Shown here: piece by piece, positions 3,569 to 51,465 of the stretch
Numbering within the stretch: the stretch's first letter is position 1
How the letters are laid out: each line of letters starts with the position of its first letter
Sequence record: PZ445498.1
Length of the DNA stretch: 64,000 nt
Reading direction: 5' to 3' (one strand)
Origin: a phage
The notes under the pieces: model-generated
Told to the model about the DNA's origin: nothing
The model's database searches: none
The model's input: the letters and a program-made list of their open reading frames with translations, nothing else
Made by a program: the position numbers and the translations under genes

Positions 3569-4201
3569 ATGACAAATGCTGCTATTGACTATAACAAGTT
3601 AAAATCAGCACCGGTTCATTTAGACGCTTACATTAAGTCTATTGATAGCGAATCCAAAGAGGGTGTTATAAAAATCCGTGGATTCGCTAATACAATTAGT
3701 AAAGATCGCGCTGGTGACGTAATTCCTGCTTCGGCATGGAAAACGTCTAATGCACTTGCTAACTACATGAAAAACCCGATTATTCTTTTCGGCCACGACC
3801 ATCGTCGTCCAATCGGCAAGTGTATTGATCTTAACCCTACTGAAATGGGTCTCGAAATTGAATGCGAGATTTATGAAAGTTCTGATCCAGCTATCTTCTC
3901 ACTAATTAAAAACGGTGTACTGAAAACCTTCAGTATCGGATTCCGCTGCCTAGACGCAGAATGGGATGAAGCTACTGACATATTTATTATTAAAGATTTA
4001 GAACTATACGAAGTTTCGGTAGTCTCTGTACCTTGTAATCAGGACTCAACGTTCAACCTCGCTAAGAGTATGAATGGTCACGATTACACTGAATGGCGCA
4101 AATCTTTTACTGCAACAAGTTCTAAGGCTGTCCCAGCTCAAGAACGTAATCTTTCTGAACTAGAAAAACTTGCGATAGCTTTAGGCTACGTTAAAGAATA
4201 A
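3569..4201 (+). CDS. prohead protease (HK97-family, pb11-like)
   Basis: 210 aa; motif ILFGHDHRRPIGK resembles the HK97-type prohead protease catalytic region; directly upstream of major capsid gene. Confidence 0.7.
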   Translation: MTNAAIDYNKLKSAPVHLDAYIKSIDSESKEGVIKIRGFANTISKDRAGDVIPASAWKTSNALANYMKNPIILFGHDHRRPIGKCIDLNPTEMGLEIECEIYESSDPAIFSLIKNGVLKTFSIGFRCLDAEWDEATDIFIIKDLELYEVSVVSVPCNQDSTFNLAKSMNGHDYTEWRKSFTATSSKAVPAQERNLSELEKLAIALGYVKE

Positions 4202-4218
4202 CGGAGAATTATTTAAAA

Positions 4219-5595
4219 ATGACTATTGATATTAATAAGCTGAAGGAAGAACTTGGTCTGGGTGATCTGGCTAAATCTCTGGAAGGTCTGACTGCTGCTC
4301 AGAAAGCTGCGGAAGCTAAGCGTCTGCGTGAAGAGCAGGAAGAAAAAGAACTGGCTCGTATGAACGATCTAGTATCTAAAGCTGTTGGTGAAGACCGTAA
4401 GCGTCTGGAAGAAGCTCTGGATCTGGTTAAGAACCTGGATGAGAAGTCTAAGAAGAGCGCAGAACTGTTTGCACAGACTGTAGAAAAGCAACAGGAAACC
4501 ATCGTTGGTCTTCAGGACGAAATTAAGTCTCTGTTGGCAGCTCGTGAAGGTCGTTCCTTCGTTGGTGATAGCGTAGCTAAAGCTCTTTATGGCACTCAGG
4601 ATGCTTTCGAAGATGAAGTTGAGAAACTGGTTCTTCTGTCTTATATGATGGAGAAGGACGTATTCGAAACTGAACATGGTAAGGCTCACGTTAAAGCTGT
4701 TAACGGTTCTTCTTCCGTTTCCATGTCTAGCGAAGCATACGAAACTATCTTCTCTACCCGTATTATCCGTGACCTGCAGAAGGAACTGGTAGTTGGTGCA
4801 CTGTTCGATGAACTGCCAATGTCCAGCAAAATCCTTACTATGCTCGTTGAACCAGAAGCTGGTCGTGCTACTTGGGTAGATGCTTCCAAATTCGGTACTG
4901 ACGAAACTGTTGGTGACGAAGTTAAAGGTCAACTGACTGAAATCAGCTTCAAAACTTACAAGCTGGCTGCTAAGTCCTTCATCACTGATGAAACTGAAGA
5001 AGATGCAATCTTCTCCCTGCTGCCTCTGCTGCGTAAGCGTCTGATCGAAGCACACGCTGTTTCTATCGAAGAAGCTTTCATGTCTGGTAATGGTACTGGT
5101 CAGCCTAAGGGTCTGCTGAAACTGGCTGCTGATGATGGTGCTAAGGTTGTTACCGAAGCTAAAGCTGACGGTTCTGTTCTGGTAACTGCTAAGACTATCT
5201 CCAAGCTGCGTCGTAAACTGGGCCGTCATGGTCTGAAACTGAGCAAACTGGTACTGATCGTATCTATGGATGCTTACTACGATCTGCTGGAAGATGAAGA
5301 ATGGCAGGATGTTGCCCAGGTTGGTAACGATGCTGTTAAACTGCAGGGTCAGGTTGGTCGTATTTACGGTCTGCCGGTTGTAGTTTCTGAGTACTTCCCA
5401 GCTAAAGCTGCTTCTGCAGAATTCGCAGTTATTGTTTATAAAGATAACTTCGTAATGCCGCGTCAGCGTGCTGTTACTGTTGAACGTGAGCGCCAAGCTG
5501 GCAAACAGCGTGACGCATACTACGTTACTCAGCGTGTTAACCTGCAACGTTACTTCGAAAACGGCGTTGTATCTGGTGCTTACGCTGCATCTTAA
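4219..5595 (+). CDS. major capsid protein precursor (pb8-like, N-terminal scaffolding/delta domain)
   Basis: 458 aa; coiled-coil-rich N-terminal roughly 150 aa followed by HK97-fold-like body; strongly biased optimal codons; followed by an intrinsic terminator. Confidence 0.85.
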   Translation: MTIDINKLKEELGLGDLAKSLEGLTAAQKAAEAKRLREEQEEKELARMNDLVSKAVGEDRKRLEEALDLVKNLDEKSKKSAELFAQTVEKQQETIVGLQDEIKSLLAAREGRSFVGDSVAKALYGTQDAFEDEVEKLVLLSYMMEKDVFETEHGKAHVKAVNGSSSVSMSSEAYETIFSTRIIRDLQKELVVGALFDELPMSSKILTMLVEPEAGRATWVDASKFGTDETVGDEVKGQLTEISFKTYKLAAKSFITDETEEDAIFSLLPLLRKRLIEAHAVSIEEAFMSGNGTGQPKGLLKLAADDGAKVVTEAKADGSVLVTAKTISKLRRKLGRHGLKLSKLVLIVSMDAYYDLLEDEEWQDVAQVGNDAVKLQGQVGRIYGLPVVVSEYFPAKAASAEFAVIVYKDNFVMPRQRAVTVERERQAGKQRDAYYVTQRVNLQRYFENGVVSGAYAAS

Positions 5596-5612
5596 TACAG
5601 GCTTTTCAGCCG

Positions 5613-5643
5613 ATAAGGAGAGCTTCGGCTCTCCTTTTTTATT
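5613..5643 (+). terminator. intrinsic terminator after major capsid gene
   Basis: GGAGAGC-TTCG-GCTCTCC hairpin (UUCG tetraloop) followed by a T-run. Confidence 0.8.
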
Positions 5644-5654
5644 GGGAAAAATAA

Positions 5655-6167
5655 ATGCAAATCATCACTGTTGAAGATTATAAACTATATGGGAATTTAA
5701 AACGTCCTGATATGGAAACTCAGGTTGAGATGATGATTAAAGCTGCCAATACGCTGATTACAAGCCTTCTAGGTATGGATGATGCAGATGCGGTAGATCA
5801 ATTAATCACCACAAAACCTAGCCGTAGGAAATATTTCCTGAGTTCTCCTTCAGCCACATCTATTACAAAGATGACTATTAACGAGAATGAAATAGATACG
5901 GAACAGTTTAAACTGTATCCTGATGGTGTTATCCTCCTTAAGTTTAATCCTCCTGAAGGATATATGGATGTAGAGTATACTCAAGGTGGTTTCAATCCAA
6001 TGCCTGAAGATCTTAAACTGGCAGCATGTCTGTTAGTAGATCACTGGCATAAGCAAGATTATCGTCAAGCCAAGACTATTGGTGGTGAGACAGTTACGTT
6101 TAACAATACTAAGTCTGGTATTCCAGAACATATTCGTACAATCATCGAAGTCTATAGGAGAGTGTAA
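5655..6167 (+). CDS. head completion / head-tail connector protein
   Basis: 170-aa ORF directly after capsid gene; position in module; no diagnostic motif seen. Confidence 0.45.
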   Translation: MQIITVEDYKLYGNLKRPDMETQVEMMIKAANTLITSLLGMDDADAVDQLITTKPSRRKYFLSSPSATSITKMTINENEIDTEQFKLYPDGVILLKFNPPEGYMDVEYTQGGFNPMPEDLKLAACLLVDHWHKQDYRQAKTIGGETVTFNNTKSGIPEHIRTIIEVYRRV

Positions 6168-6934
6168 TGGCTCTTTCTGATCTAGCTAGACAAATTATTA
6201 AAGAGCAGCTAGATACTGCAGGACGATCTGAGAATAATAAGAATACTGTTGTATATACAGTTGAGACTGGTTTGAAGGATCCTACAAGAGATGGCACAGT
6301 TGCACAGGTATCTTTCAAATTCTCAAAACCAGTATCACAAGACTTATTAAATGTTAGGACAGCATCTATACTGAAGGCTGTTTCTTCTAACTTAGATCTT
6401 TCTGGTGATTTAGGCGCTCTAGAGAATTTAATTCAAGCAACCGCAGGTAAACGTTCTGCTGTTGGTAAAAAACGTTCTACCGGTAGAGTTCAGGTAAACT
6501 TTGGAGATCCTAGAGATACTGAAGATGGCTATTCAGGTGCAGTAACAGGTGCTTCCGGTCGTTTCGTATCAAATAGTAACATGCGTGCTATTCTTGAGAT
6601 AGTAGCTAAGGAATACTTAATCAAGGATATGAAAAAAGCAGGGGCACCATTGAAGTTCAGAACTGGTCGCTTTGCTAACTCCTTAAAGATTAAAGATGTT
6701 ATGTTACGTGATGCAGAAACTAGTAAAGGTGCTCCAGAGCTGAATGTGACGTATAACTATATGGTTCGTCCTTACTCTGTGTTCAACCCCGCAGTTTCTA
6801 CATATCGAAGACTTTCTCTACGACCTTACCCTGGCGCTCGAAACCCTCAAAAACTTATTGGGGAAGCAATCGCAAAAGCTGCAAGAGACCTGATTCACTC
6901 TAGATATAAAATCAAGGTTAATCAAGGAACCTAA
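6167..6934 (+). CDS. neck / head-tail joining protein (hypothetical)
   Basis: 255-aa ORF, start overlaps the upstream stop; position in structural module. Confidence 0.4.
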   Translation: MALSDLARQIIKEQLDTAGRSENNKNTVVYTVETGLKDPTRDGTVAQVSFKFSKPVSQDLLNVRTASILKAVSSNLDLSGDLGALENLIQATAGKRSAVGKKRSTGRVQVNFGDPRDTEDGYSGAVTGASGRFVSNSNMRAILEIVAKEYLIKDMKKAGAPLKFRTGRFANSLKIKDVMLRDAETSKGAPELNVTYNYMVRPYSVFNPAVSTYRRLSLRPYPGARNPQKLIGEAIAKAARDLIHSRYKIKVNQGT

Positions 6935-6937
6935 TAA

Positions 6938-7423
6938 ATGGATCACAGAACAAGTATTGCACAAGCAGTGGTTGACCGAATCGCCACACAAATGGATGGT
7001 TCACAACCTGACGAGTATTTCAATAACCTTTATGGAAACGTTTCTCGTCAAACTTATAAATTCGAGGAAATCCGAGAATTTCCTTATGTGGCAGTCCATA
7101 TCGGAACTGAAACTGGGCAGTATCTTCCCTCAGGCCAACAGTGGATGTTTTTAGAACTTCCAATCCTCGTGTATGACAAAGAGAAAACAGATATTCAAGA
7201 GCAACTTGAAAAACTCGTAGCTGACATAAAAACCGTCATTGACACAGGTGGAAATTTAGAATATACTGTTAGTAAACCTAATGGATCGACCTTCCCATGT
7301 GAGGCAACTGATATGAGCATTACCTCAGTAGCTACAGATGAGGGTCTACTGGCCCCATATGGTTTAGCGGAAATAAATGTAACAGTGAGGTATCAGCCAC
7401 CTCGTAGGGCACTTCGCAGATAA
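6938..7423 (+). CDS. tail terminator / tail completion protein (p142-like)
   Basis: 161-aa ORF immediately upstream of tail tube gene; size and position. Confidence 0.45.
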   Translation: MDHRTSIAQAVVDRIATQMDGSQPDEYFNNLYGNVSRQTYKFEEIREFPYVAVHIGTETGQYLPSGQQWMFLELPILVYDKEKTDIQEQLEKLVADIKTVIDTGGNLEYTVSKPNGSTFPCEATDMSITSVATDEGLLAPYGLAEINVTVRYQPPRRALRR

Positions 7424-7449
7424 GTTACAGATTAGGAGAATATAAATAA

Positions 7450-8859
7450 ATGTCTTTACAACTATTACGTAATACTCGAATCTTCGTGTCTACGGTTAAG
7501 ACTGGTCACGATAAGACCAACACGCAAGAGATTCTAGTTCAAGATGATATTTCTTGGGGTCAGGACAGTAACTCAACCGATATTACTGTTAACGAAGCTG
7601 GTCCGCGTCCAACTCGTGGTTCAAAACGTTTCAACGACTCCCTGAACGCAGCTGAGTGGAGTTTCTCTACTTACATCCTGCCTTACTTAGACAAGACTAC
7701 GAGTAAGCAGATCGTTCCGGACTACATGCTGTGGCATGCTCTTTCTAGTGGTAAGCCTATCAACCTAGATGGTGATACAGGTGCACACACTAACGAAACT
7801 AACTTCATGGTTAACTTTAAGGATAACGCATACCACGAACTGGCAATGCTACATATTTACATCCTTACTGATAAAGCATGGAGCTACATCGATTCCTGCC
7901 AGATCAACCAGGCTGAAGTAAACGTTGATATCGAAGATATCGGTCGTGTAACTTGGTCAGGTAATGGTAACCAGCTGATCCCTCTGGATGCTGCTCCATT
8001 TGATCCTGATACTGTAGGTATTGATGATGAAACTTACATGACTATCCAGGGTTCTTATATCAAAAACAAACTGACTATCCTCAAAATTAAGGATATGGAT
8101 ACTGGTAAGGCATATGACATTCCGATCACTGGTGGTAGCTTTACAATCAATAACAACATCACTTACCTGACTCCGAACGTTATGTCCCGTGTTAACATCC
8201 CAATCGGTTCATTTACTGGTGCATTCGAACTAACTGGTTCTCTAACTGCTTATCTTAACGATAAAGCTCTAGGTTCTATGGATCTGTACAAAGATCTAAT
8301 TAAGACCCTGAAAGTAGTTAACCGTTTCGAAATCGCTCTAGTACTTGGTGGTGAATATGATGATGAGCGCCCTGCTGCTGTTCTGGTTGCTAAGCAAGCC
8401 CACGTAAACATCCCAACTATTGAGACTGACGATGTACTTGGTACTTCTGTAGAGTTCAAAGCAATTCCTACTGATCTGGATACTGGTGATGAAGGTTATC
8501 TTGGTTTCTCTAATAAGTACACCAAAGCTACTATTGCAAATCTGATTGCAACTGGTGACGGTGGTAAAGCAGCTCCAGTAAAAGTAACAGGTATTACTGT
8601 TAAATCTGCGGGTGATGCAACTTCCGTCGAGAATAGTGCAACTCTTCAGATGACTGTAGATGTTTTACCTGCTGAAGCTACTAATAAGGAAGTAACTTGG
8701 TCTATTTCCTCTGGTACTGCTGCCACTATTGATGCAACTTCTGGGTTACTAACCGCTGATGCTTCTAAGACCGGTGCAGTTACTGTGAAAGCTGTAGCTA
8801 AAGATGGTTCTGGTGTAGAAGGTACTAAGAGCATTACAGTTACTGCTTCTGGTGGCTAA
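7450..8859 (+). CDS. tail tube protein with C-terminal Big_2 Ig-like domain (pb6-like)
   Basis: 469 aa; C-terminal VKVTGITVKSAGDATSVENSATLQMTVDVLPAEATNKEVTWSISSG...GLLTA is a bacterial Ig-like (Big_2) pattern; optimal codon usage. Confidence 0.75.
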   Translation: MSLQLLRNTRIFVSTVKTGHDKTNTQEILVQDDISWGQDSNSTDITVNEAGPRPTRGSKRFNDSLNAAEWSFSTYILPYLDKTTSKQIVPDYMLWHALSSGKPINLDGDTGAHTNETNFMVNFKDNAYHELAMLHIYILTDKAWSYIDSCQINQAEVNVDIEDIGRVTWSGNGNQLIPLDAAPFDPDTVGIDDETYMTIQGSYIKNKLTILKIKDMDTGKAYDIPITGGSFTINNNITYLTPNVMSRVNIPIGSFTGAFELTGSLTAYLNDKALGSMDLYKDLIKTLKVVNRFEIALVLGGEYDDERPAAVLVAKQAHVNIPTIETDDVLGTSVEFKAIPTDLDTGDEGYLGFSNKYTKATIANLIATGDGGKAAPVKVTGITVKSAGDATSVENSATLQMTVDVLPAEATNKEVTWSISSGTAATIDATSGLLTADASKTGAVTVKAVAKDGSGVEGTKSITVTASGG

Positions 8860-8863
8860 TTAA

Positions 8864-9763
8864 ATGTACTACTCTCTAATGAGGGAGTCAAAAGTTATAG
8901 TTGAGTACGATGGCAGGGCTTATCATTTTGATGCCCTGTCAAATTACGATATCAATACGTCCTATGAGGAATTTAAAACTCTTCGTAGGACTATACATCG
9001 TAGAACTAACTATGCTGACTCTATTATTAATGCTCAAACTCCATCTTCAATATCGCTGGCTATAAATTTTAGTAATACCCTTACTGAAGCTAACTTCTTT
9101 GAATGGATGGGCTTTGACCGAGAGGGTAACACATTCTTACTACCACTTTATAGTACAAATATTGAGCCAACAATGTTTAATATACACATAGTTAATAAAG
9201 ATAATAACTGTGTGTACTTTGAGAATTGCTATGTATCTACTGTAGACTTTTCTCTAGACAAAAGCGTTCCTATCCTAAACGTAGGAATTGAATCTGGTAA
9301 GTTCTCTGAGGTATCCACCTCTACTCCTGCTGGTTCTATTGTTCAGGGTGAAGTTATGTCATACAGTCCCCCTAGAGTATCTACCAACAGTAATGTTTTA
9401 CCAGCTCTTTTATCCGCTTCTATGTCATTCCAGCAACAATGTTCTTGGAGGGAAGATAAAAGCGTATTTGACATAAACAAAATATATAATAATAAGAGAG
9501 CTTATGTTAATGAAATGAATGCTTCGGCAACAATTGCATTTTACTACACTAAGCGATTTGCTGGTGATATGTTTTATAATATTGAACCAGAAACTGACAT
9601 ACCATTAACCATCCGGAATGGACATATTTCGATTGACTTCCCTTCAGCACGTATAACAAAACGCCTACAATTCTCGGATATATACAGAGTTGAATGGGAT
9701 GTAATCCCTACTGCAGACTCTGATCCGGTAAGAATCGACTTCTTTGGAGAAATAAAGAAATGA
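8864..9763 (+). CDS. tail-associated protein (p140-like)
   Basis: 299-aa ORF between tail tube and tape measure genes. Confidence 0.4.
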   Translation: MYYSLMRESKVIVEYDGRAYHFDALSNYDINTSYEEFKTLRRTIHRRTNYADSIINAQTPSSISLAINFSNTLTEANFFEWMGFDREGNTFLLPLYSTNIEPTMFNIHIVNKDNNCVYFENCYVSTVDFSLDKSVPILNVGIESGKFSEVSTSTPAGSIVQGEVMSYSPPRVSTNSNVLPALLSASMSFQQQCSWREDKSVFDINKIYNNKRAYVNEMNASATIAFYYTKRFAGDMFYNIEPETDIPLTIRNGHISIDFPSARITKRLQFSDIYRVEWDVIPTADSDPVRIDFFGEIKK

Positions 9764-10164
9764 TCAATTTAAAAGATATTACCCTTGAAACTCGTACTAT
9801 TGAGCTGGCTTACCCAGGTATGCCTAACTTCAAGCTGCAACTGAACTACATGTCTCGTGCTGCATCTAAGCGTGTTATCTCTTCCGCTAAGCGTGACGAG
9901 TGGGTTAACGGTACTATGATTCAAGTTCAGGACGATGATAAGTTTATTGAAGCTTTCGTTGATACTGCAATTGCTGGCTGGACTGGCTTGACTATTGGAG
10001 ACGTTGAGAAACTGATGCTTATCGAAACTGAAGCTGATCCTACTACTGAAGTTCCATTTAGTCGCGATAACGCTATCATGCTTATGCAGAACTCTGCTGC
10101 GTTTGATTCTTGGATCAACCAGACAGTGTTCCACTTAGACACTTTTCGTAGCTCAAAAGCGTAA
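9760..10164 (+). CDS. putative tail assembly chaperone
   Basis: 134-aa ORF upstream of tape measure gene; GGAG Shine-Dalgarno; position. Confidence 0.4.
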   Translation: MINLKDITLETRTIELAYPGMPNFKLQLNYMSRAASKRVISSAKRDEWVNGTMIQVQDDDKFIEAFVDTAIAGWTGLTIGDVEKLMLIETEADPTTEVPFSRDNAIMLMQNSAAFDSWINQTVFHLDTFRSSKA

Positions 10165-10225
10165 GCAGTTACTAGATGCTGTTGCCGATTTTGCTGATAA
10201 ATGCATTAAATCATCAGCATCTAAA

Positions 10226-10594
10226 ATGACAAAACAACAATATTTAATGCTTTGTGAGTCGCTAGGTATTGAACCTGATCCTAAGGCAATGCCTGTTGAA
10301 CTCGAAGATTTTCCACCTATTGTATCTACTAGTATGAATATTTATAACAGTCTTATTGACTGTTTCATACCAGGTGACTTTCCTATTTTTATAGGAAAAG
10401 ACAAAAGTGCACTAGGTGTTTTATTTGATATCTATGGGATTACTGATCCTATAGAGAAAGAGTTTGTTCTACACATCATCAATATATTTGATTCGAAAGC
10501 TGTAGATGCAGCTCGTAAGAGAGCCGAGAAGCATGGTAAACAAAATGGTCGCACTCCGAACATTAAACCGCATGCTAGATCTCGAGCTCAGTAA
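10226..10594 (+). CDS. hypothetical protein (possible tail assembly chaperone partner)
   Basis: 122-aa ORF with weak Shine-Dalgarno; its frame is open from 10139 and overlaps the end of the upstream ORF. Confidence 0.35.
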   Translation: MTKQQYLMLCESLGIEPDPKAMPVELEDFPPIVSTSMNIYNSLIDCFIPGDFPIFIGKDKSALGVLFDIYGITDPIEKEFVLHIINIFDSKAVDAARKRAEKHGKQNGRTPNIKPHARSRAQ

Positions 10595-10629
10595 AAGTTT
10601 CCTCCAATGGGCGTTCCACGATGAGGCTT

Positions 10630-10662
10630 GGCTCTGGGTGATTTGCCCAGAGCCTTTTTTAT
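10630..10662 (+). terminator. intrinsic terminator
   Basis: GGCTCTGGG / CCCAGAGCC 9-bp stem followed by TTTTTT. Confidence 0.75.
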
Positions 10663-10674
10663 TGGGAAAAATAA

Positions 10675-13600
10675 ATGACTGATAAGCTAATACGAGAACT
10701 ACTTATAGATGTAAAGCAGAAAGGGGCAACCCGTACTGCAAAATCTATTGAGAACGTTTCCGATGCGTTAGAAAATGCTGCTGCCGCTTCCGAACTGACT
10801 AATGAGCAGTTAGGAAAAATGCCCAAAACTCTTTACTCCATTGAGAGGGCAGCGGATAGAGCAGCTAAAAGCCTAACTAAAATGCAGGCTAGCAGAAGTA
10901 TGATGGGTATCACCAAATCTATAGATAGTATTGGTGCTAAGTTAGATGACCTTGCTATTGCTATGATTGAGGTATCCGATAAGCTAGAGTCTGGATTTAC
11001 ACATGTTGGTAAATCTGTTAAGGCGATGGGTAACGATGTAGCTGCTGCAACTGAAAAAGTTCAAGATAGATTATATGATACAAACCGTGTTTTGTCGGGT
11101 ACTACTAGAGGCTTCAATGATACTACCACATCCGCAGGTCGTGCTAGTCGTGCTCTAGGTAATACATCTGGTTCTGCACGTGGTGCTACTCGTGACTTCG
11201 CAGCAATGGCTAAAGTTGGTGGTTCTCTACCTCTTATGTATGCTGCTATTGCATCTAACGTGTTCGTTCTACAATCTGCATTCGAACAACTTAAGATGGG
11301 TGACCAGTTAAACCGTCTGGAGAAGTTCGGTACTATTGTAGGTACTCAAACAGGTACTCCGGTACAAACTCTAGCTAGATCTCTACAAGAGGCTGCTGGT
11401 TATGCAATCTCCTTCGAAGAAGCAATGAGACAGGCATCCTCTGCTTCTGCATATGGATTCGATGCTGAACAACTTAATAAATTTGGTCTAGTAGCTCGTC
11501 GTGCTGCTGCTGTTCTTGGTGTTGATATGACTGATGCACTTAACCGTGTAATCAAAGGTGTATCTAAACAAGAAATCGAACTTCTGGACGAACTTGGTGT
11601 TACTATTCGTCTTAATGATGCTTACGCTGACTACGTTAAACAGTTAAATGCTGCTAACACAGGTATCACATATAACGTCAATAGTCTTTCCACTTTCCAA
11701 AAGCAACAAGCATATGCTAACGCAGTAATTGCTGAATCTACTAAACGTTTCGGTTACTTGGATGACGTACTCCGTGCAACTCCATGGGAACAGTTTGCTG
11801 CTAACGCTGATGCTGCACTAAGAAAGGTTCAACAGGCTGCTGCTAAGTATTTAGGGCCGGTAATTGATTCTATTAACGCAGTATTCTATACTTCTCAAGC
11901 ATCTATCTCGGCTTCTGCTGCTAGAGCACAAGAAGAAACTAACCGTCAGATTGACCCAACTAACGTTGGTGCTGTAGCTTTAAGTCTTTTCGCTTCCGAG
12001 GAAGGATATAATAAAGCTCTTGATATGTATAAAGAGTCTCTGGATAAGCGTAATAAACTAAAGACTGAGTTTGATAAACGTATGTCCCAAGCAGATGCTA
12101 GTACTGCTGCCGCTATTAGATTAGTGGGTGAGGGAATGCCTGTTGGATTAGCTGCTGGGGGATTTGAAGTAGGGGGAGTGCGCATAGGTTCTTCCGAAGC
12201 TAACAAAAAGTTTGTAGAAGAAACCGCAGCTATGGGACTACAGGTAGCAAGGTTAGGTAAAGAAGTTGATGACTCTACTGAAAACCTTAATGCTTGGAAA
12301 TCTGCGTATCAAGCTGCTGGTGCTGCGGCTGCTAAGACTAATCCAGAATTTCAGAAGCAGATTAATCTGCAGAAGGATATGAATGACCCTGATGCGGTTT
12401 ATGACTTTAACTCCGCAACTCTGAAAGGACTGACGGAACAGCAGAAAGCATATGATCAGGCTAAGAAAACTGCTAGTGATTTAGCTAACGATATCCAGAA
12501 CATTGCCGAAAATACTAATACTGCGGCTAAAACTAGTGCATCCCTATCGGATACGATTAAGACTATTGAGTCTCTATCTGCCGGCACTGGTAAAAATGCT
12601 GATGAGTATGTTAAGAGTCTGAACTTAGGGTATAATACTCTTAGTGAGATGAAGACTGCCTCACAAGCTCTTGCTGGTTATGTAAAATTAATTAGTAATG
12701 AGACTAAAAATCAGTTAGAAGTTCAGCAAAAGATTGCCGAAGTGTACAACCAGACCAAGGATAAAGAGAAAGCACAGGAAGCGGGTAGACGTCTAGAAAT
12801 CCAACAGTTAGAAGAACAGGAAGCAGCTCTTAAGCGTGTCCTAGAAACTAACAAGGGTAACAAGGCAATTGAGAATGAAATAGCTAAGGTTCAGTTAGAA
12901 CGTATCAAAATTACTAACCAGGACATGGAAGCTCAGAAGAAAGTTAAGGACTATACGGATAAGATTCTTGGTGTTGATCGTGAAATAGCTCTCCTGAATA
13001 ACCGTACTATGACAGATACTCAATATCGTTTAGCTCAGTTGAACCTTGAACTGACTATCGAGAAAGAGAAGTATGTGTGGTACTCCAAGCAGATTGATAA
13101 GCAGAAGGAAGCTGAACAATCAAGACGTGCTCAGGCACAGATTGAGCGTGAAATCTGGAAAGCTAGGTTAGATAATATATCCAGAGTTGCAGCAAAAAGA
13201 CAGGAAGCATTTGAGAATACATTAACTGGCATGTACCCTCTAGCAGGGGAAATGCAAAAGATGGAAATGCAGTTAGAATTCTATAAACAAATGAAAGAGT
13301 TTACTAAAGGTAATGCGGATGAACAGATGCGATGGAATTCTGAGATATCAAAAACTCAAGCACAAATGTCCGCATTAGCAGCCCAAAGAAATGCTCAAAT
13401 GCAACAACAAGTAGGTTCATCTGTAGGAGCTACATATACACCTACAACTGGACTATCTGGAGATGACAAAGCTTTCGCGGATATGCAGAATAGAATGGCA
13501 TCCTATGACCAGGCTATCTCTAAACTATCCGAGCTGAACTCTGAAGCAACTGCAGTGGCACAAAGTATGGGTAACCTAACTAATGCTATGATTCAGTTCT

Positions 13601-14385
13601 CTCAGGGATCTCTGGATACTACATCTTTAGTTGCTGCTGGTATGCAAACTGTGTCTTCAATGATTCAGTATAGTGTTGGTCAACAGGTAAGTGCTATTGA
13701 TGCAGCTATTGCAGCAGAACAGAAACGTGATGGTAAATCTGAGCAATCCAAAGCTAAGATCAAGAAGTTAGAGGCTGAAAAGCTCAAGATCCAGCAAGAT
13801 GCAGCTAAGAAGCAAATCATTATCCAGACGGCAGTAGCGGTGATGCAAGCAGCAACAGCTGTTCCATACCCATTTTCTATTCCTCTGATGGTTGCGGCTG
13901 GTTTAGCAGGTGCTATGGCTCTTGCTCAAGCATCCTCTGCATCTGGTATGTCTTCTATTGGGGACTCTGGTGCTGAGACAGCTGGTTACTTAACTCTTGG
14001 AGAGCGCCAGAAGAACGTAGACGTTTCTATGTCGGCTAACGCAGGAGAACTTTCTTATATTCGAGGGGATCAAGGGATTGGTAATGCTAACTCTTTCGTA
14101 CCTCGTGCAGAAGGTGGTAATATGTATCCTGGAGTTAGTTACCAGATGGGTGAGCATGGTACCGAAGTAATCACTCCTATGGTTCCGATGAAGGCTACTC
14201 CTACTGATGAACTCAAAGGATCTTCAAAGGGTACATCGGGTAGACCTATTGTGCTGAATATCAGTACGATGGATGCGGCTAGCTTCCGAGACTTTGCTTC
14301 GAGCAACAGTGCTGCTTTCAGGGATGCCGTGGAACAGGCTCTTAATGAGAATGGAACCACCCTGAAATCACTTGGTAATTCTTAA
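10675..14385 (+). CDS. tail tape measure protein (pb2-like)
   Basis: 1236 aa; long coiled-coil/alpha-helical Ala/Gln/Lys-rich protein with C-terminal hydrophobic segment; position before distal tail and hub genes. Confidence 0.85.
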   Translation: MTDKLIRELLIDVKQKGATRTAKSIENVSDALENAAAASELTNEQLGKMPKTLYSIERAADRAAKSLTKMQASRSMMGITKSIDSIGAKLDDLAIAMIEVSDKLESGFTHVGKSVKAMGNDVAAATEKVQDRLYDTNRVLSGTTRGFNDTTTSAGRASRALGNTSGSARGATRDFAAMAKVGGSLPLMYAAIASNVFVLQSAFEQLKMGDQLNRLEKFGTIVGTQTGTPVQTLARSLQEAAGYAISFEEAMRQASSASAYGFDAEQLNKFGLVARRAAAVLGVDMTDALNRVIKGVSKQEIELLDELGVTIRLNDAYADYVKQLNAANTGITYNVNSLSTFQKQQAYANAVIAESTKRFGYLDDVLRATPWEQFAANADAALRKVQQAAAKYLGPVIDSINAVFYTSQASISASAARAQEETNRQIDPTNVGAVALSLFASEEGYNKALDMYKESLDKRNKLKTEFDKRMSQADASTAAAIRLVGEGMPVGLAAGGFEVGGVRIGSSEANKKFVEETAAMGLQVARLGKEVDDSTENLNAWKSAYQAAGAAAAKTNPEFQKQINLQKDMNDPDAVYDFNSATLKGLTEQQKAYDQAKKTASDLANDIQNIAENTNTAAKTSASLSDTIKTIESLSAGTGKNADEYVKSLNLGYNTLSEMKTASQALAGYVKLISNETKNQLEVQQKIAEVYNQTKDKEKAQEAGRRLEIQQLEEQEAALKRVLETNKGNKAIENEIAKVQLERIKITNQDMEAQKKVKDYTDKILGVDREIALLNNRTMTDTQYRLAQLNLELTIEKEKYVWYSKQIDKQKEAEQSRRAQAQIEREIWKARLDNISRVAAKRQEAFENTLTGMYPLAGEMQKMEMQLEFYKQMKEFTKGNADEQMRWNSEISKTQAQMSALAAQRNAQMQQQVGSSVGATYTPTTGLSGDDKAFADMQNRMASYDQAISKLSELNSEATAVAQSMGNLTNAMIQFSQGSLDTTSLVAAGMQTVSSMIQYSVGQQVSAIDAAIAAEQKRDGKSEQSKAKIKKLEAEKLKIQQDAAKKQIIIQTAVAVMQAATAVPYPFSIPLMVAAGLAGAMALAQASSASGMSSIGDSGAETAGYLTLGERQKNVDVSMSANAGELSYIRGDQGIGNANSFVPRAEGGNMYPGVSYQMGEHGTEVITPMVPMKATPTDELKGSSKGTSGRPIVLNISTMDAASFRDFASSNSAAFRDAVEQALNENGTTLKSLGNS

Positions 14386-14392
14386 TACTGGA

Positions 14393-14420
14393 GGAGGACA
14401 TAAAGTCCTCCTTTTCTTTA
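14393..14420 (+). terminator. intrinsic terminator after tape measure gene
   Basis: GGAGGAC-ATAAA-GTCCTCC hairpin followed by TTTTCTTT. Confidence 0.75.
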
Positions 14421-14438
14421 TGGAAAAATAAAAATTTC

Positions 14439-14467
14439 TTGATAAAATTTTCCAATCCTATTATAAT
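14439..14467 (+). promoter_or_regulatory. sigma70-like promoter (TTGATA-N17-TATAAT) upstream of distal tail protein gene
   Basis: -35 TTGATA at 14439-14444, 17-nt spacer, -10 TATAAT at 14462-14467; GGAG Shine-Dalgarno before ATG at 14494. Confidence 0.55.
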
Positions 14468-14493
14468 ATTGTTATTAAGAGGAGAAATTAACT

Positions 14494-15108
14494 ATGAGAC
14501 TACCAGACCCATACACGAACCCAGAGCTATCAGGGTTAGGTTTTGAAAGCGTTAACTTAGTAGACAATGACCCTATGATTCGTGATGAATTACCTAATGG
14601 TAAAGTTAGGGAGGTTAAGGTGTCTGCTCAATATTGGGGTATTAATATCTCTTATCCAGAATTATTCCCAGATGAATTTGCTAAATTAGACTCATTCATT
14701 CTAGATTATAAAAGAACAGGTAGCTATATTGATGTGTTATTACCACAATATGAAGCCTTCCGAGTTCGTGGTGATACTAGTGCTGTAAATATTCCTGCTG
14801 GACAAAAAGGTTCAACAGTTATTATGGACACTAAAGGTACACTTCGTGGACTGCCTAAACCAGGCGATTTATTTAAGTTGTCCAATCATCCAAAAGTGTA
14901 TAAAATCACTTCTATCAACATAGCAGGAAATACTTGGAATATAAGTGTTTACCCTGATCTATTCATTACTACTACGGGTAGTGAGAAACCAGTATTTAAT
15001 GGTATTCTATTTAGAACTAAATTAATGAATGGAGACAGCTTCGGCTCTACGTTAAATAGCAATGGTACATATACTGGTATTTCACTTTCCTTGAGGGAAA
15101 GTCTATGA
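14494..15108 (+). CDS. distal tail protein (pb9-like)
   Basis: 204 aa; first gene after tape measure; size matches T5 distal tail protein. Confidence 0.6.
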   Translation: MRLPDPYTNPELSGLGFESVNLVDNDPMIRDELPNGKVREVKVSAQYWGINISYPELFPDEFAKLDSFILDYKRTGSYIDVLLPQYEAFRVRGDTSAVNIPAGQKGSTVIMDTKGTLRGLPKPGDLFKLSNHPKVYKITSINIAGNTWNISVYPDLFITTTGSEKPVFNGILFRTKLMNGDSFGSTLNSNGTYTGISLSLRESL

Positions 15109-17954: not shown

Positions 17955-20012
17955 ATGATTTCGAATAATGCACCAGCCAAGATGGTCTTAAATAGTATTA
18001 TGACTGGATATACTATGGCGTATATCCAGCATTCTATCTATACCGACTACGATGTTATCGGTAGATCATTCTGGCTTAAACTTGGCGAAGAAGTGGATAG
18101 AAGAGATTTCACTGGAATCGACACTTTCTTTGTTATGATCAATAACTTAACTCCTTCAACTACCTATCAGGTTCAGGGAGCGTTTTATGACTCAATTATT
18201 GACTCAGAACTTTTAAATGCAAAAATTGGTATTAACCTCTCTAATGAAACTAACTTTAAAACAAAAGAGAAGCCAATAATTGTTGCAGCAAGATCTGAGT
18301 CAGAACCTGTGGATGTTGGGGTGGGCGCACCAATAGTTGTTGTGGAAACAACTGGTGAAGCAAGCTACTGTACTATTGAGTTAAAAAGTACAGCCACTGA
18401 AGACAGTCCATGGACTAAATATTACATTGGGGCTTTAGGTTCTACTATTAAATTTGGTGGAGTTCCTATCGGAGATTATAAGATCAGAATATCTGGTCAA
18501 GTAACTATGCCTGATGGTGTTACAGTTGATTCTTCTGGGTACTATGAGTTTCCTAATATTCTAACTGTAGCCTATAACTTTGTTCCTCCTACTGCACCTA
18601 TCGATATTGTTTTTAAAGCTGCACGAATTGCTGATGGTAAAGAACGATATGATGTTAGAATTGAGTGGGACTGGGAACGTGGTGCTGGTGCTAATGTTCG
18701 TGAGTTCTTGGTTACTTATATAAACTCCGAAGAATACGCTAAAACCGGATGGGCTAAAGCTCAAAAGATAAACGTGGGTGCTGCCAGAGCTGCAACAATT
18801 ATATCATTCCCATGGAAAGTTGAACATACTTTTAAGGTATCATCAATTGCCTGGGGACCAAATAAACAAGATATAACAGAGTCATCTCCTGTAACATTTA
18901 TTCTGAATGAAGATACTCCTCTAGATAATAGTTTTGTCAATGAGACGGGTATTGATGTTAACTATGCCTTTATTAAGGGTAGTATGAAAGATGGGGAAAT
19001 CTGGAGACAAACATTCCTAATTGATGCAGCTACTGGTGCTATTAACATTGGTCTGCTAGATGAAGAAGGTAAAGCACCTATTTCTTTTGACCCTATAAAC
19101 CGTGTTGTTAACGTTGATGGCAAAGTAATTACTAGAGATATTAATGCTGCGAACTTTATCATGACTAACTTGTCTGGTAAAGATAACCCAGCAATTTACA
19201 CTCAAGGTAAATCCTGGGGGGATAATAACTCTGGTATTTGGATGGGTATGGATAATACCTCTGCCAAAGCTAAGTTAGACATTGGTAATGCTACACAATG
19301 GATACGTTATGATGGTACTACTCTGCGTATTTCTAGTGGTGTAGTAATTGGAACACCAAATGGTGACGTAGATATTGGAACTGGTTTACAAGGTAAGCAA
19401 ACAGTATTTGTTTATAAGTTAGCAACATCTTTACCGGCCAAACCGTTAGAACAAGATTATCCACCTCCTGGTTGGTCAAAAACTCCACCTAACCGTACAG
19501 ATATGACACAAAATATCTATGCGACTACAGGTACACTTGATCCAGTTACTAACAAACTTCTTGAAGGTACTAGCTGGTCTGATGTAGTTCAATGGAGTGG
19601 TACTGAAGGTACTATAGGACATGATGGACAGCGTGGTCCTGGGATGTACTCCATGGGTATTCCTGGATTAGGCGGTTGGGATGATGGACAAGCTAACGCA
19701 TTCTTTCAAAATAACTTTGGAAAACCTCCGGTTAAATACGATGTTCTAACACAATTTAACAGTAATGCTCCACAAACAGCATTTACCCGCCAATGGAACG
19801 GGGGTGGATGGATTAACCCTGCAATGGTTCTTCATGGAAACATGATTGTTAATGGAACTGTAACTGCGGATAAGATTGTGGCAGGAAATGCCTTCTTATC
19901 ACAAATAGGTGTTAATATAATCTACGATAGAAATGCTGCGTTATCAGGGAACCCTGAAGCATACTACAAGATGAAGATAGACCTAAATAGTGGGTATATC
20001 CATATAAGGTAA
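17955..20012 (+). CDS. central straight fibre protein (pb4-like)
   Basis: 685 aa; follows hub gene; position and size. Confidence 0.6.
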
Positions 20013-22933: not shown

Positions 22934-22973
22934 AAGAAAACCCCAGTGGACAATCCACTGGGGTTTATTATTA
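22932..22973. terminator. bidirectional intrinsic terminator between convergent late and early blocks
   Basis: CCCCAGTGGA-CAAT-TCCACTGGGG 10-bp stem flanked by an A-run upstream and a T-run downstream. Confidence 0.85.
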
Positions 22974-50131: not shown

Positions 50132-50242
50132 CACGCGCCCGTGTACGCGATATAAAATGATTATCTAGTACCATACATCTCCCAATAAAAGCAAGCAAAT
50201 TTTTTATTTAAATGCAATATCATAGGCTTATTTAAAATTGTA

Positions 50243-50271
50243 GTTGCTTTCTCCCGTATATATTGGTATAA
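50243..50271 (+). promoter_or_regulatory. early promoter upstream of phoH
   Basis: TTGCTT-N17-TATAAT. Confidence 0.6.
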
Positions 50272-50345
50272 TATATTTGTAAGTTGATAAACAAGATCTT
50301 TTTGTTGATCCTCTGTTAGCGAAGTACACTATAGGAGTGTTATTT

Positions 50346-51098: not shown

Positions 51099-51099
51099 T

Positions 51100-51342
51100 A
51101 TGGGAAACGTCGTACATCTGCACCGCAAAACTAAGATCCACCGTACTTCATTGAGTGCTGCTAATATGATTACACGTAAGGAAGGGGAAGAAAGTCCTAA
51201 GACTACCCTAGCGTGGAAAATTGTAGCCTCTAATCCAAATCGGCCTTTCAACTATAATGAACTGAGTACTTCTATAGACATTCTTATGGCTAAGGAAATA
51301 CGACAGAAACTAACTGATATGACCGATAAACTTAAATGGTAA
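51100..51342 (+). CDS. hypothetical protein
   Basis: 80-aa ORF translationally coupled to phoH; followed by a terminator. Confidence 0.4.
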   Translation: MGNVVHLHRKTKIHRTSLSAANMITRKEGEESPKTTLAWKIVASNPNRPFNYNELSTSIDILMAKEIRQKLTDMTDKLKW

Positions 51343-51349
51343 GACAGAC

Positions 51350-51383: not shown

Positions 51384-51398
51384 TCTGTAAAATTGTAC

Positions 51399-51427: not shown

Positions 51428-51465
51428 ATCTCCTAAATCCTGATAACTACAAAAAGGAAAGCCAA

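What the first reader, a model, noticed from the sequence alone, without database searches (positions are those of the whole stretch)
5632..5657. Identical 25-nt terminator-to-start module duplicated at two late-gene junctions
CCTTTTTTATTGGGAAAAATAAATG occurs identically at 5632-5657 (after the capsid gene terminator, giving the start of the 5655 gene) and at 10653-10677 (after the terminator at 10630-10662, giving the tape measure start). A related copy, TTTCTTTATGGAAAAATAAAAA, follows the tape measure terminator at 14415. The structural operon therefore reuses a cassette of terminator T-tract, GGGAA ribosome-binding site and ATG, suggesting partial termination coupled to re-initiation to set protein stoichiometry.
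Basis: seen in the sequence. Interest (0 to 1): 0.35.

Follow-up and report, generated by a model that had tools for sequence, protein, structure and literature searches.

The report
Shared terminator-to-start junctions, T5-like phage
Two gene junctions in the late operon of a T5-like phage share the same 25 bases because each is the tail of a transcription terminator running straight into the weak ribosome-binding site and start codon of a low-copy virion gene; this is an ordinary, though unusually well conserved, way of turning expression down.

Summary
CCTTTTTTATTGGGAAAAATAAATG occurs exactly twice (5633-5657 and 10653-10677), with a 76% copy at 14410-14434. The window is an Epseptimavirus, a T5-like phage.

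The 25-mer is not a duplicated cassette. It is a composite of two adjoining signals:
- The 3' end of an intrinsic terminator: the last stem bases plus U6AUU.
- A weak translation-initiation region: GGGAA, an A-rich spacer and ATG.

Site 1 separates the major capsid gene from the head-completion gene. Site 2 separates the tail-tube/chaperone genes from the tape-measure gene. The same layout is found across Demerecviridae, including Proteus and Vibrio phages. The hairpins keep their pairing through compensatory changes. In Vibrio phage phi3 a true GGAGG sits where this window has GGGAA.

In T5 itself an HNH endonuclease gene is inserted exactly between ...TTTTTTATT and GGG, so the two halves are separable. 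Variants at one site are not mirrored at the other, so there is no gene conversion. The third copy precedes a sigma-70 promoter, not a start codon.

Attenuation that matches protein copy number is plausible but untested. "Coupled re-initiation" is unsupported. Both whole spacers are ultraconserved (99.6-99.9% against 82-95% for flanking genes), and a block upstream of the site-2 hairpin remains unexplained. Ordinary kind, low interest.

The parts
4219..5595 (+). Major capsid (head) protein gene, upstream of junction J1
   Evidence: Pfam Phage_capsid and phrog_10; annotated in Salmonella phage bastian
5601..5612 (+). Small conserved hairpin GGCU-UUUC-AGCC in the J1 spacer
   Evidence: Fold; variants in relatives still pair (GGC..GCC in Sealy and KEY, GGCU..AGCC in L012); 100% conserved in 27 unique sequences
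5615..5636 (+). J1 intrinsic-terminator hairpin AAGGAGAGC-UUCG-GCUCUCCUU (cUUCGg tetraloop)
   Evidence: Terminator scan; -15.0 kcal/mol, z -4.7; 5 of 10 pairs show compensatory changes
5633..5657 (+). 25-mer copy 1: last two stem bases CC, U-tract T6ATT (5635-5643), weak SD GGGAA (5644-5648), A-rich spacer, ATG (5655-5657)
5655..6167 (+). Head completion / head-tail adaptor gene (low copy)
   Evidence: Pfam PF24163 HCP, E = 1.2e-78; phrog_442
7239..7267 (+). Internal sigma-70 promoter TTGACA-17-TATACT with an upstream ATAAAAAC, inside the tail-terminator gene and about 210 nt before the tail-tube gene
   Evidence: Best promoter match of the region; conserved from E. coli to Proteus and Vibrio phages inside coding DNA
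10226..10594 (+). Second tail assembly chaperone gene, upstream of junction J2
   Evidence: phrog_3914 and phrog_313; annotation
10595..10629 (+). Conserved non-coding block AAGTTTCCTCCAATGGGCGTTCCACGATGAGGCTT, function unknown
   Evidence: 100% conserved; recognisable in Klebsiella, Erwinia, Proteus and Vibrio phages; no Rfam match
10630..10654 (+). J2 intrinsic-terminator hairpin GGCUCUGGG-UGAUUU-CCCAGAGCC
   Evidence: -20.3 kcal/mol, z -5.4; 6 of 14 pairs show compensatory changes
10653..10677 (+). 25-mer copy 2: CC, T6ATT (10655-10663), GGGAA (10664-10668), spacer, ATG (10675-10677)
10675..14385 (+). Tape measure protein gene (pb2 homologue, a trimer in the virion)
   Evidence: Pfam TMP_N and TMP_C, phrog_3779; stoichiometry from 10.1101/2024.10.16.618446
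14390..14414 (+). J3 terminator hairpin after the tape measure gene
   Evidence: -15.4 kcal/mol, z -3.9
14410..14434 (+). Partial (76%) copy CCTTTTCTTTATGGAAAAATAAAAA: T-tract plus the A/T-rich upstream region of the next promoter
   Evidence: T5-type promoters carry AAAAATT around -43 (PMC3326045)
14439..14467 (+). Sigma-70 promoter TTGATA-17-TATAAT for the distal-tail and baseplate genes (DTP starts at 14494)
   Evidence: invariant in Tequintavirus and Epseptimavirus, with equivalents in Sealy, KEY, Proteus and Vibrio phages

Best explanation
The 25-mer is two adjoining, separately constrained signals that happen to abut at both junctions.

The 5' part (CC-U6-A-U-U) is the end of a Rho-independent terminator. 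RNA polymerase coming from the highly expressed upstream genes (the capsid gene at J1; the tail tube and chaperone genes at J2) mostly stops there, and the hairpin also caps the 3' end of the abundant upstream mRNA.

The 3' part (GGGAA, A-rich spacer, AUG) is a weak translation-initiation region. It is used only on the minority of transcripts that read through. On those transcripts the U-tract lies just 5' of the Shine-Dalgarno and probably serves as an A/U-rich ribosome (S1) landing site.

Together, a strong but leaky terminator and a weak Shine-Dalgarno keep the head-completion group and the tape-measure protein far below the capsid and tail-tube proteins. A conserved internal promoter at 7239 restores high transcription for the tail tube gene, and a terminator-plus-promoter pair at J3 resets it after the tape measure gene.

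The two copies are identical because both have been held near the same preferred sequence by purifying selection since early in the family. No cassette was copied recently.

Shown: the sequence features, their conservation, hairpin covariation, separability of the two halves, and the absence of concerted change. Inferred: actual termination, its leakiness, use of the Shine-Dalgarno and U-tract, and the stoichiometric purpose.
For: Terminator features:
- Strong hairpins each followed at once by U6AUU, with compensatory changes across genera.
- J2 reads G(-11) C(-10) C U6 A(-2) U(-1), which matches the GC(U)7RU bubble-edge consensus reported for strong terminators (read). J1 matches C(-10), A(-2) and U(-1).
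- The homologous sites are already annotated as terminator plus RBS in Klebsiella phage Sealy, and as terminators in Erwinia phage KEY.

Initiation region:
- Anti-SD duplex of -4.2 kcal/mol at both sites, against -5.4 to -9.5 for the other late genes that have an evident Shine-Dalgarno.
- Vibrio phage phi3 has TTTTTTATTGGAGGTAATAAAATG at J1, so GGAGG occupies the GGGAA position.
- AATAAATG precedes 5 late-gene starts out of its 9 occurrences in the window.
- A/U-rich tracts 5' of a Shine-Dalgarno raise translation 3-5 fold, and intercistronic hairpins that do not cover the SD or AUG are largely neutral (PMC3592434).

Separability:
- In T5 an HNH endonuclease gene sits exactly between ...CCTTTTTTATT and the GGG position, and the tape measure gene keeps a GGAAAA-type leader on the far side.
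- In Tequintavirus the J2 ATG is 3 nt further from the shared core.

No concerted evolution:
- J1 variants (GG; ATTATTAGG; T13) and J2 variants (T5; A4; single C) never co-occur in a matching way within one genome.
- The same tail, TTTTTTATTGGGTAAAATAAATG, is at J1 in Proteus phage 2 and at J2 in Erwinia phage KEY.

Selection: the J1 and J2 spacers are 99.9% and 99.6% identical across 27 unique sequences, against 82-95% for flanking coding DNA.

Operon logic:
- No promoter-like site between hairpin and ATG.
- The internal promoter before the tail-tube gene is conserved family-wide.
- Downstream proteins are low copy: TMP trimer, TrP hexamer, TCP about one per virion.
- Leaky terminators are a documented way for phages to balance expression (PMC9163698).
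Against: - I found no transcript 3'-end, read-through or ribosome data for any T5-like phage. Termination and its efficiency are therefore inferred.
- By sequence alone the hairpins look strong, so enough read-through for essential genes has to be assumed. A late-phase modification of RNA polymerase could change that.
- Conservation covers the whole spacers, including loops and a 35-nt block upstream of the J2 hairpin. That is more than a terminator plus RBS usually needs.
- GGG lies 9 nt from the ATG here and 12 nt at Tequintavirus J2, at or beyond the usual range for a Shine-Dalgarno.
- The J3 copy keeps GGAAAAATAAA without any start codon, so a role for the A-rich part that is unrelated to translation is not excluded.
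Confidence: 0.72

Rival explanations
1. The identity results from a copying event: duplication of a module, or short-patch gene conversion between J1 and J2. The shared sequence as such would then have no particular functional meaning.
For: A 25-nt exact match is far beyond chance. In the T5/EPS7 lineage both sites read GGGA, where outgroups read GGGT at J1 (Proteus 2, Sealy) or at J2 (KEY/AAS21). J1 of T5/EPS7 resembles its own J2 more than it resembles J1 of KEY or L034.
Against: The identity has no flanking homology: stems and coding sequences are unrelated. Within single genomes the two sites vary independently. The same tail occurs at J1 in one genus and at J2 in another, which points to an old shared optimum. 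Sealy has T at J1 but A at J2, so the T-to-A changes happened at different times. Both spacers are far better conserved than neutral DNA, so selection is needed in any case.
Confidence: 0.1
2. The shared RNA (U6AUUGGGAAAAAUAAA, possibly with the conserved neighbouring blocks) is the binding site of a trans-acting factor that coordinately controls read-through or translation of the head-completion and tape-measure genes. Candidates are a phage late protein or the host proteins Hfq or CsrA.
For: Conservation of the whole spacers (99.6-99.9%) exceeds what a generic terminator and RBS require. The J1 hairpin plus tail is 42 of 44 nt identical in Proteus phage 2, whose adaptor protein is only 32% identical. 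The tail contains a U-rich post-hairpin tract and AAN/ARN triplets, and a GGA that a weak AU stem could place in a loop. A further conserved, unexplained block lies next to J2.
Against: No direct evidence for any factor. The sequence varies freely in more distant genera while the layout is kept. T5 tolerates replacement of the GGGAAAAATAAA half at J2. The AU-only hairpin is marginal. No Rfam family matches.
Confidence: 0.08
3. The hairpins act mainly as 3'-end stabilisers or processing barriers for the capsid and tail-tube mRNAs, blocking exonucleases after endonucleolytic cleavage in the AU-rich tail. They would not be sites where RNA polymerase terminates.
For: The very stable cUUCGg tetraloop hairpin at J1 is of the kind known from phage T4 intercistronic regions (own knowledge: Tuerk et al. 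1988). The AU-rich single-stranded tail is a plausible RNase E target. This would also yield more upstream than downstream message.
Against: A U-tract directly abutting a GC-rich stem, with a C/GC at the stem edge and an A-U at -2/-1, is the specific signature of intrinsic termination. A stabiliser needs no U-tract. The two roles are not exclusive.
Confidence: 0.08
4. Chance resemblance of two low-complexity AT-rich stretches.
For: The sequence is low in complexity. The 23-nt core also turns up after two unrelated bacterial terminator hairpins, about the number I estimate would arise by chance (my own rough estimate, about 2) among all terminators in 596 Gb.
Against: 0 expected in shuffles of the window. 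Both copies are conserved in position across dozens of genomes.
Confidence: 0.01

Closest known systems
Leaky terminator after the major capsid gene of phage T7 (T-phi after gene 10), and weak terminators in other phages
   Same: A hairpin terminator placed right after the most abundantly needed structural gene, with read-through supplying the lower-copy genes downstream. Inefficient terminators as a way of balancing phage gene expression are documented (PMC9163698; the T7 details are from my own knowledge).
   Different: T7 uses its own RNA polymerase and a class I T7 terminator. Here host sigma-70 polymerase transcribes late genes (PMC7472727). The terminator tail here runs directly into the next gene's RBS, and read-through has not been measured.
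Predicted terminators and RBSs annotated at the homologous junctions of Klebsiella phage Sealy and Erwinia phage KEY
   Same: Same three junctions and same elements: terminator 9446-9469 plus RBS 9473-9476, and terminator 14156-14185 plus RBS 14189-14191 in Sealy; three terminators in KEY.
   Different: Those are in-silico annotations with no comment on the shared tail, its conservation or its function.
E. coli rnd (RNase D) leader: terminator-like hairpin plus U8 just upstream of the Shine-Dalgarno, with the U-tract required for translation (Zhang & Deutscher 1989/1992; own knowledge, the 1989 paper is cited in PMC3592434)
   Same: Hairpin, then a run of U, then the SD and start codon within about 20 nt. 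The U-run is proposed to help ribosome binding. A/U-rich enhancers act independently of the SD.
   Different: rnd is a 5' leader behind its own promoter, not an intercistronic junction. Dual use of the U-tract has not been tested in the phage.
GC(U)7RU 'hairpin, U-tract, bubble-edge' definition of intrinsic terminators (bioRxiv 10.64898/2026.05.29.728758)
   Same: J2 reads G C C U6 A U and J1 reads U C C U6 A U at positions -11 to -1. This would explain why the 5' half of the 25-mer is fixed in sequence and not merely U-rich.
   Different: One position of the U-run is C (the closing stem base), and J1 lacks the -11 G. The rule was derived for B. subtilis and E. coli terminators, not for phage ones. 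It is a preprint.
CUUCGG tetraloop hairpins in phage T4 intercistronic regions (Tuerk et al. 1988; own knowledge)
   Same: The J1 hairpin closes with C(UUCG)G. A similar hairpin recurs at 53807-53828, and a UACG-loop one at 27830-27809 on the minus strand.
   Different: In T4 many of these hairpins lack a U-tract and are thought to stabilise RNA. Here a U-tract follows directly.

Membership tests
Rho-independent (intrinsic) transcription terminator | GC-rich RNA hairpin more stable than expected for its composition | tested here: met
   J1 -15.0 (z -4.7), J2 -20.3 (z -5.4), J3 -15.4 kcal/mol (z -3.9); 0 of 200 shuffles fold as well
Rho-independent (intrinsic) transcription terminator | U-rich tract immediately 3' of the stem | tested here: met
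   T6ATT at J1 and J2, T4CT3AT at J3
Rho-independent (intrinsic) transcription terminator | Hairpin maintained in relatives by compensatory substitutions | tested here: met
   5 of 10 pairs (J1) and 6 of 14 pairs (J2) have both-sides changes across 8-9 diverse phages
Rho-independent (intrinsic) transcription terminator | Bubble-edge dinucleotides: GC at -11/-10 and RU at -2/-1 | tested here: inconclusive
   J2 has G, C and A, U at the right spacing. J1 has U, C and A, U. J3 fits poorly. The termination point itself is unknown
Rho-independent (intrinsic) transcription terminator | RNA 3' ends and polymerase release at the U-tract | not testable with these tools
   No transcript-end data for T5-like phages found
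Shine-Dalgarno-led translation initiation region | Complementarity to the 3' end of 16S rRNA | tested here: met
   GGGA pairs with UCCU at -4.2 kcal/mol, which is weak. GGAGG occupies the same position in Vibrio phage phi3
Shine-Dalgarno-led translation initiation region | Spacing of roughly 5-10 nt to the start codon of a conserved gene | tested here: inconclusive
   9 nt from GGG (7 from GGGAA) in this window, but 12 nt at J2 of Tequintavirus. The ATGs begin conserved proteins
Shine-Dalgarno-led translation initiation region | 30S binding and initiation at this AUG | not testable with these tools
   Needs toeprinting or reporter fusions
Duplicated or mobile sequence cassette (dispersed repeat, gene-conversion tract) | Copies share sequence beyond the functional core, or have defined ends or flanks | tested here: not met
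   Identity is exactly 25 nt and the flanks are unrelated
Duplicated or mobile sequence cassette (dispersed repeat, gene-conversion tract) | Copies within one genome change together | tested here: not met
   J1 and J2 variants are independent in 34 loci. The same tail is at J1 in Proteus phage 2 and at J2 in KEY
Duplicated or mobile sequence cassette (dispersed repeat, gene-conversion tract) | Further copies elsewhere in the genome or in other elements | tested here: not met
   The 23-nt core occurs at most twice per contig, only in T5-sized contigs of IMG/VR. Only 5 sporadic hits in 596 Gb of bacterial genomes
Translational coupling / termination-reinitiation | Upstream stop codon overlapping or within a few nt of the downstream start | tested here: not met
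   Stop-to-start distances are 59 nt (J1) and 80 nt (J2), with a stable hairpin in between
Terminator followed by sigma-70 promoter with A/T-rich upstream region (applies to J3 only) | -35 and -10 hexamers at 17 bp, with an A/T-rich -43 region | tested here: met
   TTGATA-17-TATAAT, 11 of 12, preceded by AAAAATAAAAATTT. T5-type promoters have AAAAATT near -43 (PMC3326045). Conserved in relatives
Any curated RNA family (Rfam 15) | Covariance-model match at or above the gathering score | tested here: not met
   No hit in the window at gathering thresholds; only chance-level hits around J1 and J2

The most novel reading that the evidence does not exclude
The near-invariant J1 and J2 spacers would be more than terminator plus RBS. 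On this reading the shared U6AUUGGGAAAAAUAAA tail, together with the family-wide conserved block upstream of the J2 hairpin (10595-10629), is recognised by a dedicated trans-acting factor. That factor could be a phage late protein acting as antiterminator or translational repressor, or a host RNA-binding protein. It would set read-through and translation of the head-completion and tape-measure genes in a coordinated, possibly assembly-responsive way.
Probability: 0.08. Interest if true: 0.55.

Novelty: new member of a known kind. Interest (0 to 1): 0.2.

Why it matters
This gives a simple, testable map of how T5-like phages may set very different amounts of virion proteins from one late transcription unit: capsid gene, leaky terminator, low-copy neck genes, internal promoter, tail tube and chaperones, leaky terminator, tape measure, then terminator plus promoter. 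The junctions are compact, well conserved parts that could be reused in phage engineering or synthetic operons. They also offer a natural case for asking whether a terminator U-tract doubles as a ribosome landing site. It does not reveal a new kind of element. Its main value is to stop the identical 25-mer from being read as a mobile or duplicated cassette, and to flag the unexplained conserved block next to J2.

Tried and rejected
- Rfam search of the whole window, and sensitive searches around J1 and J2: nothing above chance.
- Long-range pairing of the conserved J2 upstream block with the U-tract and GGGAA. It appeared in one fold, but it depends on the exact sequence ends and is not reproduced in Sealy, Proteus or Vibrio homologues. 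Rejected as a conserved structure.
- Predicted pairing of the capsid-gene 3' end with the adaptor AUG. The capsid 3' codons vary freely in relatives, so rejected.
- A promoter hidden between terminator and ATG at J1 or J2: none found, and there is no room for one.
- A mini-ORF, ATG GAA AAA TAA, inside the J3 copy: not conserved in Sealy, so treated as chance.
- Reading the J2 block as a read-through extension of the chaperone gene: the frame differs between genera (sequences), so rejected.
- Gene conversion between J1 and J2: no co-variation.
- A universal post-terminator motif: a scan of 185,579 bacterial genomes gave only 5 hits. Three are coding (Saprospiraceae...ITPFLLGKIKEL...) and two follow unrelated terminators, about my own rough chance estimate (about 2).
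- Literature searches for T5 Term-seq, RNA-seq or terminator mapping found none. The BF23 late-gene paper (PMC197117) is not held. The BF23 genome paper gives no nick consensus to compare with the J2 block.
- A degenerate-pattern scan for the J2 block returned only Demerecviridae among hits that have a following T-tract. These were too invariant for a covariation test.
Full report
**Where the window comes from.** The region 4000-16000 is 96-97% identical to many Epseptimavirus genomes (Salmonella phages 3-29 and bastian, Escherichia phage EPS7). An 801-bp piece around the first site is 100% identical to Escherichia phage vB_Eco_mar003J3. The window is therefore a T5-like phage (Demerecviridae). 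Gene identities were taken from the annotated relative bastian and checked with Pfam and PHROGs:
- major capsid protein, 4219-5595
- head completion/adaptor, 5655-6167
- tail completion, tail terminator, tail tube (7450-8859) and a minor tail protein
- two tail assembly chaperones, 9760-10164 and 10226-10594
- tape measure protein, 10675-14385
- distal tail protein, from 14494

**The observation.** CCTTTTTTATTGGGAAAAATAAATG is present exactly at 5633-5657 and 10653-10677. Even with three mismatches allowed there are no other copies, and none are expected by chance. The identity is exactly 25 nt. It begins at the last two bases of each hairpin stem and ends at the ATG, and the hairpins and coding sequences on either side are unrelated. 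A 76% copy lies at 14410-14434. GGAAAAATAA occurs three times in 64 kb, each time right after one of the three strongest terminator-like hairpins of the late region.

**Anatomy.**
- J1: stop codon at 5593-5595, a small hairpin (5601-5612), a 9-bp hairpin with a cUUCGg loop (5615-5636), T6ATT, GGGAA, AAATAA, ATG.
- J2: stop at 10592-10594, a 35-nt conserved block, a 10-11-bp hairpin (10630-10654), then the same tail.
- J3: hairpin 14390-14414, TTTTCTTTAT, GGAAAAATAAAAATTTC, then TTGATA-17-TATAAT (14439-14467) and a strong GAGGAG Shine-Dalgarno for the distal tail protein.

The hairpins are much more stable than shuffled controls. At J1 and J2 only 18-20 nt separate stem and ATG, and no promoter-like site lies there. 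Transcripts of the downstream genes must therefore pass through the hairpin.

**Comparison with relatives.** I extracted the three junctions from 29 IMG/VR loci (including T5 itself), five GenBank phages at first, and later four more distant ones.
- J1 carries the identical tail in almost all Tequintavirus and Epseptimavirus genomes.
- J2 carries the identical 25-mer in Epseptimavirus. In Tequintavirus it reads ...GGGAAAAATAAA followed by ACATG, ATATG or TTATG. The shared core is thus 23 nt and the start codon sits 3 nt further away.
- Rare variants at J1 (GG for GGG; ATTATTAGG; a T13 run; one C fewer) and at J2 (T5; A4; one C fewer) never appear as matching pairs in one genome.
- Further out the layout persists while the sequence drifts:

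| Phage | J1 tail | J2 tail |
|---|---|---|
| Klebsiella phage Sealy | TTTTTTATTGGGTAAAATATG | TTTTTTATTGGAAAAAATCATG |
| Erwinia KEY / Pantoea AAS21 | TTTTTTATTATAGGTACATAATG | TTTTTTATTGGGTAAAATAAATG |
| Proteus phage 2 | TTTTTTATTGGGTAAAATAAATG | TTTTTTATAGGTGAAATTCATATG |
| Vibrio phage phi3 | TTTTTTATTGGAGGTAATAAAATG | TTTTTATTAGGAGAAAACTCATAATG |

Three points follow. First, the arrangement (a terminator abutting the next start at J1 and J2; a terminator plus promoter at J3) is family-wide and old. Second, the G-run occupies the position of a canonical GGAGG in phi3, so it is a degenerate Shine-Dalgarno. Third, the same tail occurs at J1 in one genus and at J2 in another. This argues for a long-held common optimum, or an ancient common origin, rather than recent copying within this genome.

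**Separability.** In T5 itself the J2 hairpin and ...CCTTTTTTATT are intact, but the next bases are TATAAACATATAGG... and a 250-codon HNH-type endonuclease gene (phrog_681, E = 1.7e-68). The tape measure gene follows, with its own leader ...ACAGGAAAACATTAGATG. The insertion point falls exactly at the T-tract/GGG boundary. The 25-mer is therefore two units: a terminator tail that stays with the upstream hairpin, and an initiation region that belongs to the downstream gene.

**Why each half is fixed.**
- Terminator half. A 2026 preprint maps termination sites on about 10^4 templates. It finds that strong intrinsic terminators need GC at -11/-10 and a purine-U at -2/-1 around a 7-nt U-run. J2 reads G C C U6 A U, and J1 reads U C C U6 A U. 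So CC-T6-AT is close to a sequence-specific optimum, not merely U-rich.
- Initiation half. The anti-SD duplex is -4.2 kcal/mol at both sites, the weakest among late genes that have an evident Shine-Dalgarno. The last eight bases, AATAAATG, are a recurrent late-gene start context: five late-gene starts among nine occurrences in the window. A/U-rich sequence just 5' of a Shine-Dalgarno is a known S1-dependent enhancer, and hairpins between cistrons are largely neutral unless they cover the SD or AUG (PMC3592434). The U-tract may therefore do double duty on read-through RNA. This is inference.

**Strength of selection.** Across 27 unique Tequintavirus/Epseptimavirus sequences the J1 spacer (59 nt) is 99.9% identical and the J2 spacer (80 nt) 99.6%. 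The adjacent 300 nt of coding DNA are 82-95% identical, and the J3 spacer is 94%. The hairpins nevertheless show compensatory changes in more distant phages. The J1 hairpin plus tail is 42 of 44 nt identical in Proteus phage 2, whose adaptor protein is only 32% identical.

**Operon logic.**
- Upstream of J1 lies the capsid protein, the most abundant virion protein (own knowledge: 775 copies in T5).
- Downstream lie head completion, TCP (about one copy) and TrP (a hexamer).
- A near-consensus promoter, TTGACA-17-TATACT with an upstream ATAAAAAC, lies inside the TrP gene about 210 nt before the tail-tube gene. It is conserved from E. coli to Proteus and Vibrio phages despite being in coding DNA.
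- J2 then precedes the trimeric tape measure, and J3 plus a promoter resets transcription for the tail-tip genes.
- T5 late promoters are ordinary sigma-70 promoters (PMC7472727), and leaky terminators are an established means of balancing phage gene expression (PMC9163698).

I found no 3'-end or read-through data for any T5-like phage.

**What is not supported.**
- The stop-to-start distances (59 and 80 nt) rule out translational coupling, and there is no room for transcriptional re-initiation.
- The third copy is the T-tract plus the A/T-rich -43 region typical of T5 promoters (PMC3326045), not an RBS.
- The element is not dispersed. The 23-nt core occurs at most twice per contig, and only in T5-sized contigs of IMG/VR.
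- In 596 Gb of bacterial genomes there are five sporadic hits: three coding, and two after unrelated terminators with no adjacent ATG.
- No Rfam family matches.

**Context within the genome.** Stereotyped regulatory cassettes are common here. The early promoter-leader cassette occurs eight times at 60-84% identity, and J1-like UNCG-loop terminators recur at 53807 and 27830. The J1/J2 pair is simply the most perfectly matched example.

**What remains open.** The spacers are conserved beyond what a terminator plus RBS needs. The clearest case is the block 10595-10629 (AAGTTTCCTCCAATGGGCGTTCCACGATGAGGCTT), which is recognisable even in Vibrio phages. Its predicted fold is not consistent between genera, and it is too invariant for a covariation test. 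A specific RNA-protein interaction controlling read-through or tape-measure translation cannot be excluded. I put that at under 10%.

**Verdict.** The feature is an ordinary kind of element, a leaky intrinsic terminator abutting a weak translation start. It is already annotated in silico at the homologous sites of related phages and is notable only for its compactness and extreme conservation.

Noticed in passing
window 10595-10629 (+): A 35-nt non-coding block, AAGTTTCCTCCAATGGGCGTTCCACGATGAGGCTT, between the chaperone stop codon and the J2 hairpin. It is 100% conserved in Tequintavirus and Epseptimavirus and recognisable in Klebsiella, Erwinia, Proteus and Vibrio phages. It contains a CCUCC (anti-SD-like) motif. 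No consistent fold, no Rfam match, function unknown.
   Followed up: partly
window 7239-7267 (+): A near-consensus sigma-70 promoter (TTGACA-17-TATACT, preceded by ATAAAAAC) embedded in the tail-terminator gene about 210 nt upstream of the tail-tube gene. It is conserved across the family despite lying in coding DNA, and is probably the promoter that boosts tail-tube expression.
   Followed up: partly
L013 (phage T5) 14960-15772; L010, L012, L029 upstream of J1: Homing-endonuclease-type genes sit in these junctions in some relatives. In T5 an HNH-type gene lies exactly between the J2 T-tract and the tape measure leader. In three IMG/VR phages extra sequence replaces the normal capsid-gene 3' end just upstream of the J1 hairpin; the GenBank phage TrudiRoth has a homing endonuclease gene annotated in this region.
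   Followed up: partly
window 9760-10164 and 10226-10594 (+): The two tail assembly chaperone ORFs match the two halves of a single PHROG profile (phrog_313 positions 12-141 and 170-257). In Erwinia phage KEY and Pantoea phage AAS21 the two ORFs overlap. This suggests a G/GT-like programmed frameshift product; the slippery site was not looked for.
   Followed up: no
window 5601-5612 (+): A small hairpin, GGCU-UUUC-AGCC, between the capsid stop codon and the J1 terminator. It is kept with different loop and stem bases in Sealy, KEY and L012. Purpose unknown.
   Followed up: partly
window 20571-21147 (+): Tandem 21-nt (7-codon) repeats, GCAAAAACTAGTGAGACTAAT-like, inside the long tail-fibre gene. 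This is a repetitive coding segment that may vary in copy number between phages.
   Followed up: no
window 50226-63844 (+), and minus-strand sites 28972-55180: Eight or more copies of a stereotyped early promoter-leader cassette (AAAATT..TTGCT..N17..TATAATA..AAATTGAGAGG) at 60-86% identity. Several sit directly after terminator hairpins.
   Followed up: no
window 53807-53828 (+) and 27830-27809 (-): Terminator hairpins closely resembling the J1 hairpin: AAGGAGAUC-UUCG-GGUCUCCUU and AAGGGGAGC-UACG-GCUCCCUUU. UNCG-loop terminators appear to be a house style of this genome.
   Followed up: no
window 22938-22966 (both strands): A perfect 13-bp hairpin flanked by A-runs and T-runs, scored as a terminator on both strands. 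Probably a bidirectional terminator; the flanking genes were not examined.
   Followed up: no
L083 7868-7890 (-), L086 1104-1126 (+): The same 23-nt tail (CC-T6-ATTGGGAAAAATAAA) follows unrelated terminator hairpins in a Margulisiibacteriota genome and a Lactobacillus genome, with no adjacent start codon. The number of such hits is about what I estimate by chance.
   Followed up: yes
window 17955 vs 18015 (+): The pb4-like gene can start at 17955 (longest ORF, directly after the pb3 stop) or at 18015 as annotated in phage bastian. A 10-bp hairpin (18004-18029) overlaps the second start.
   Followed up: no
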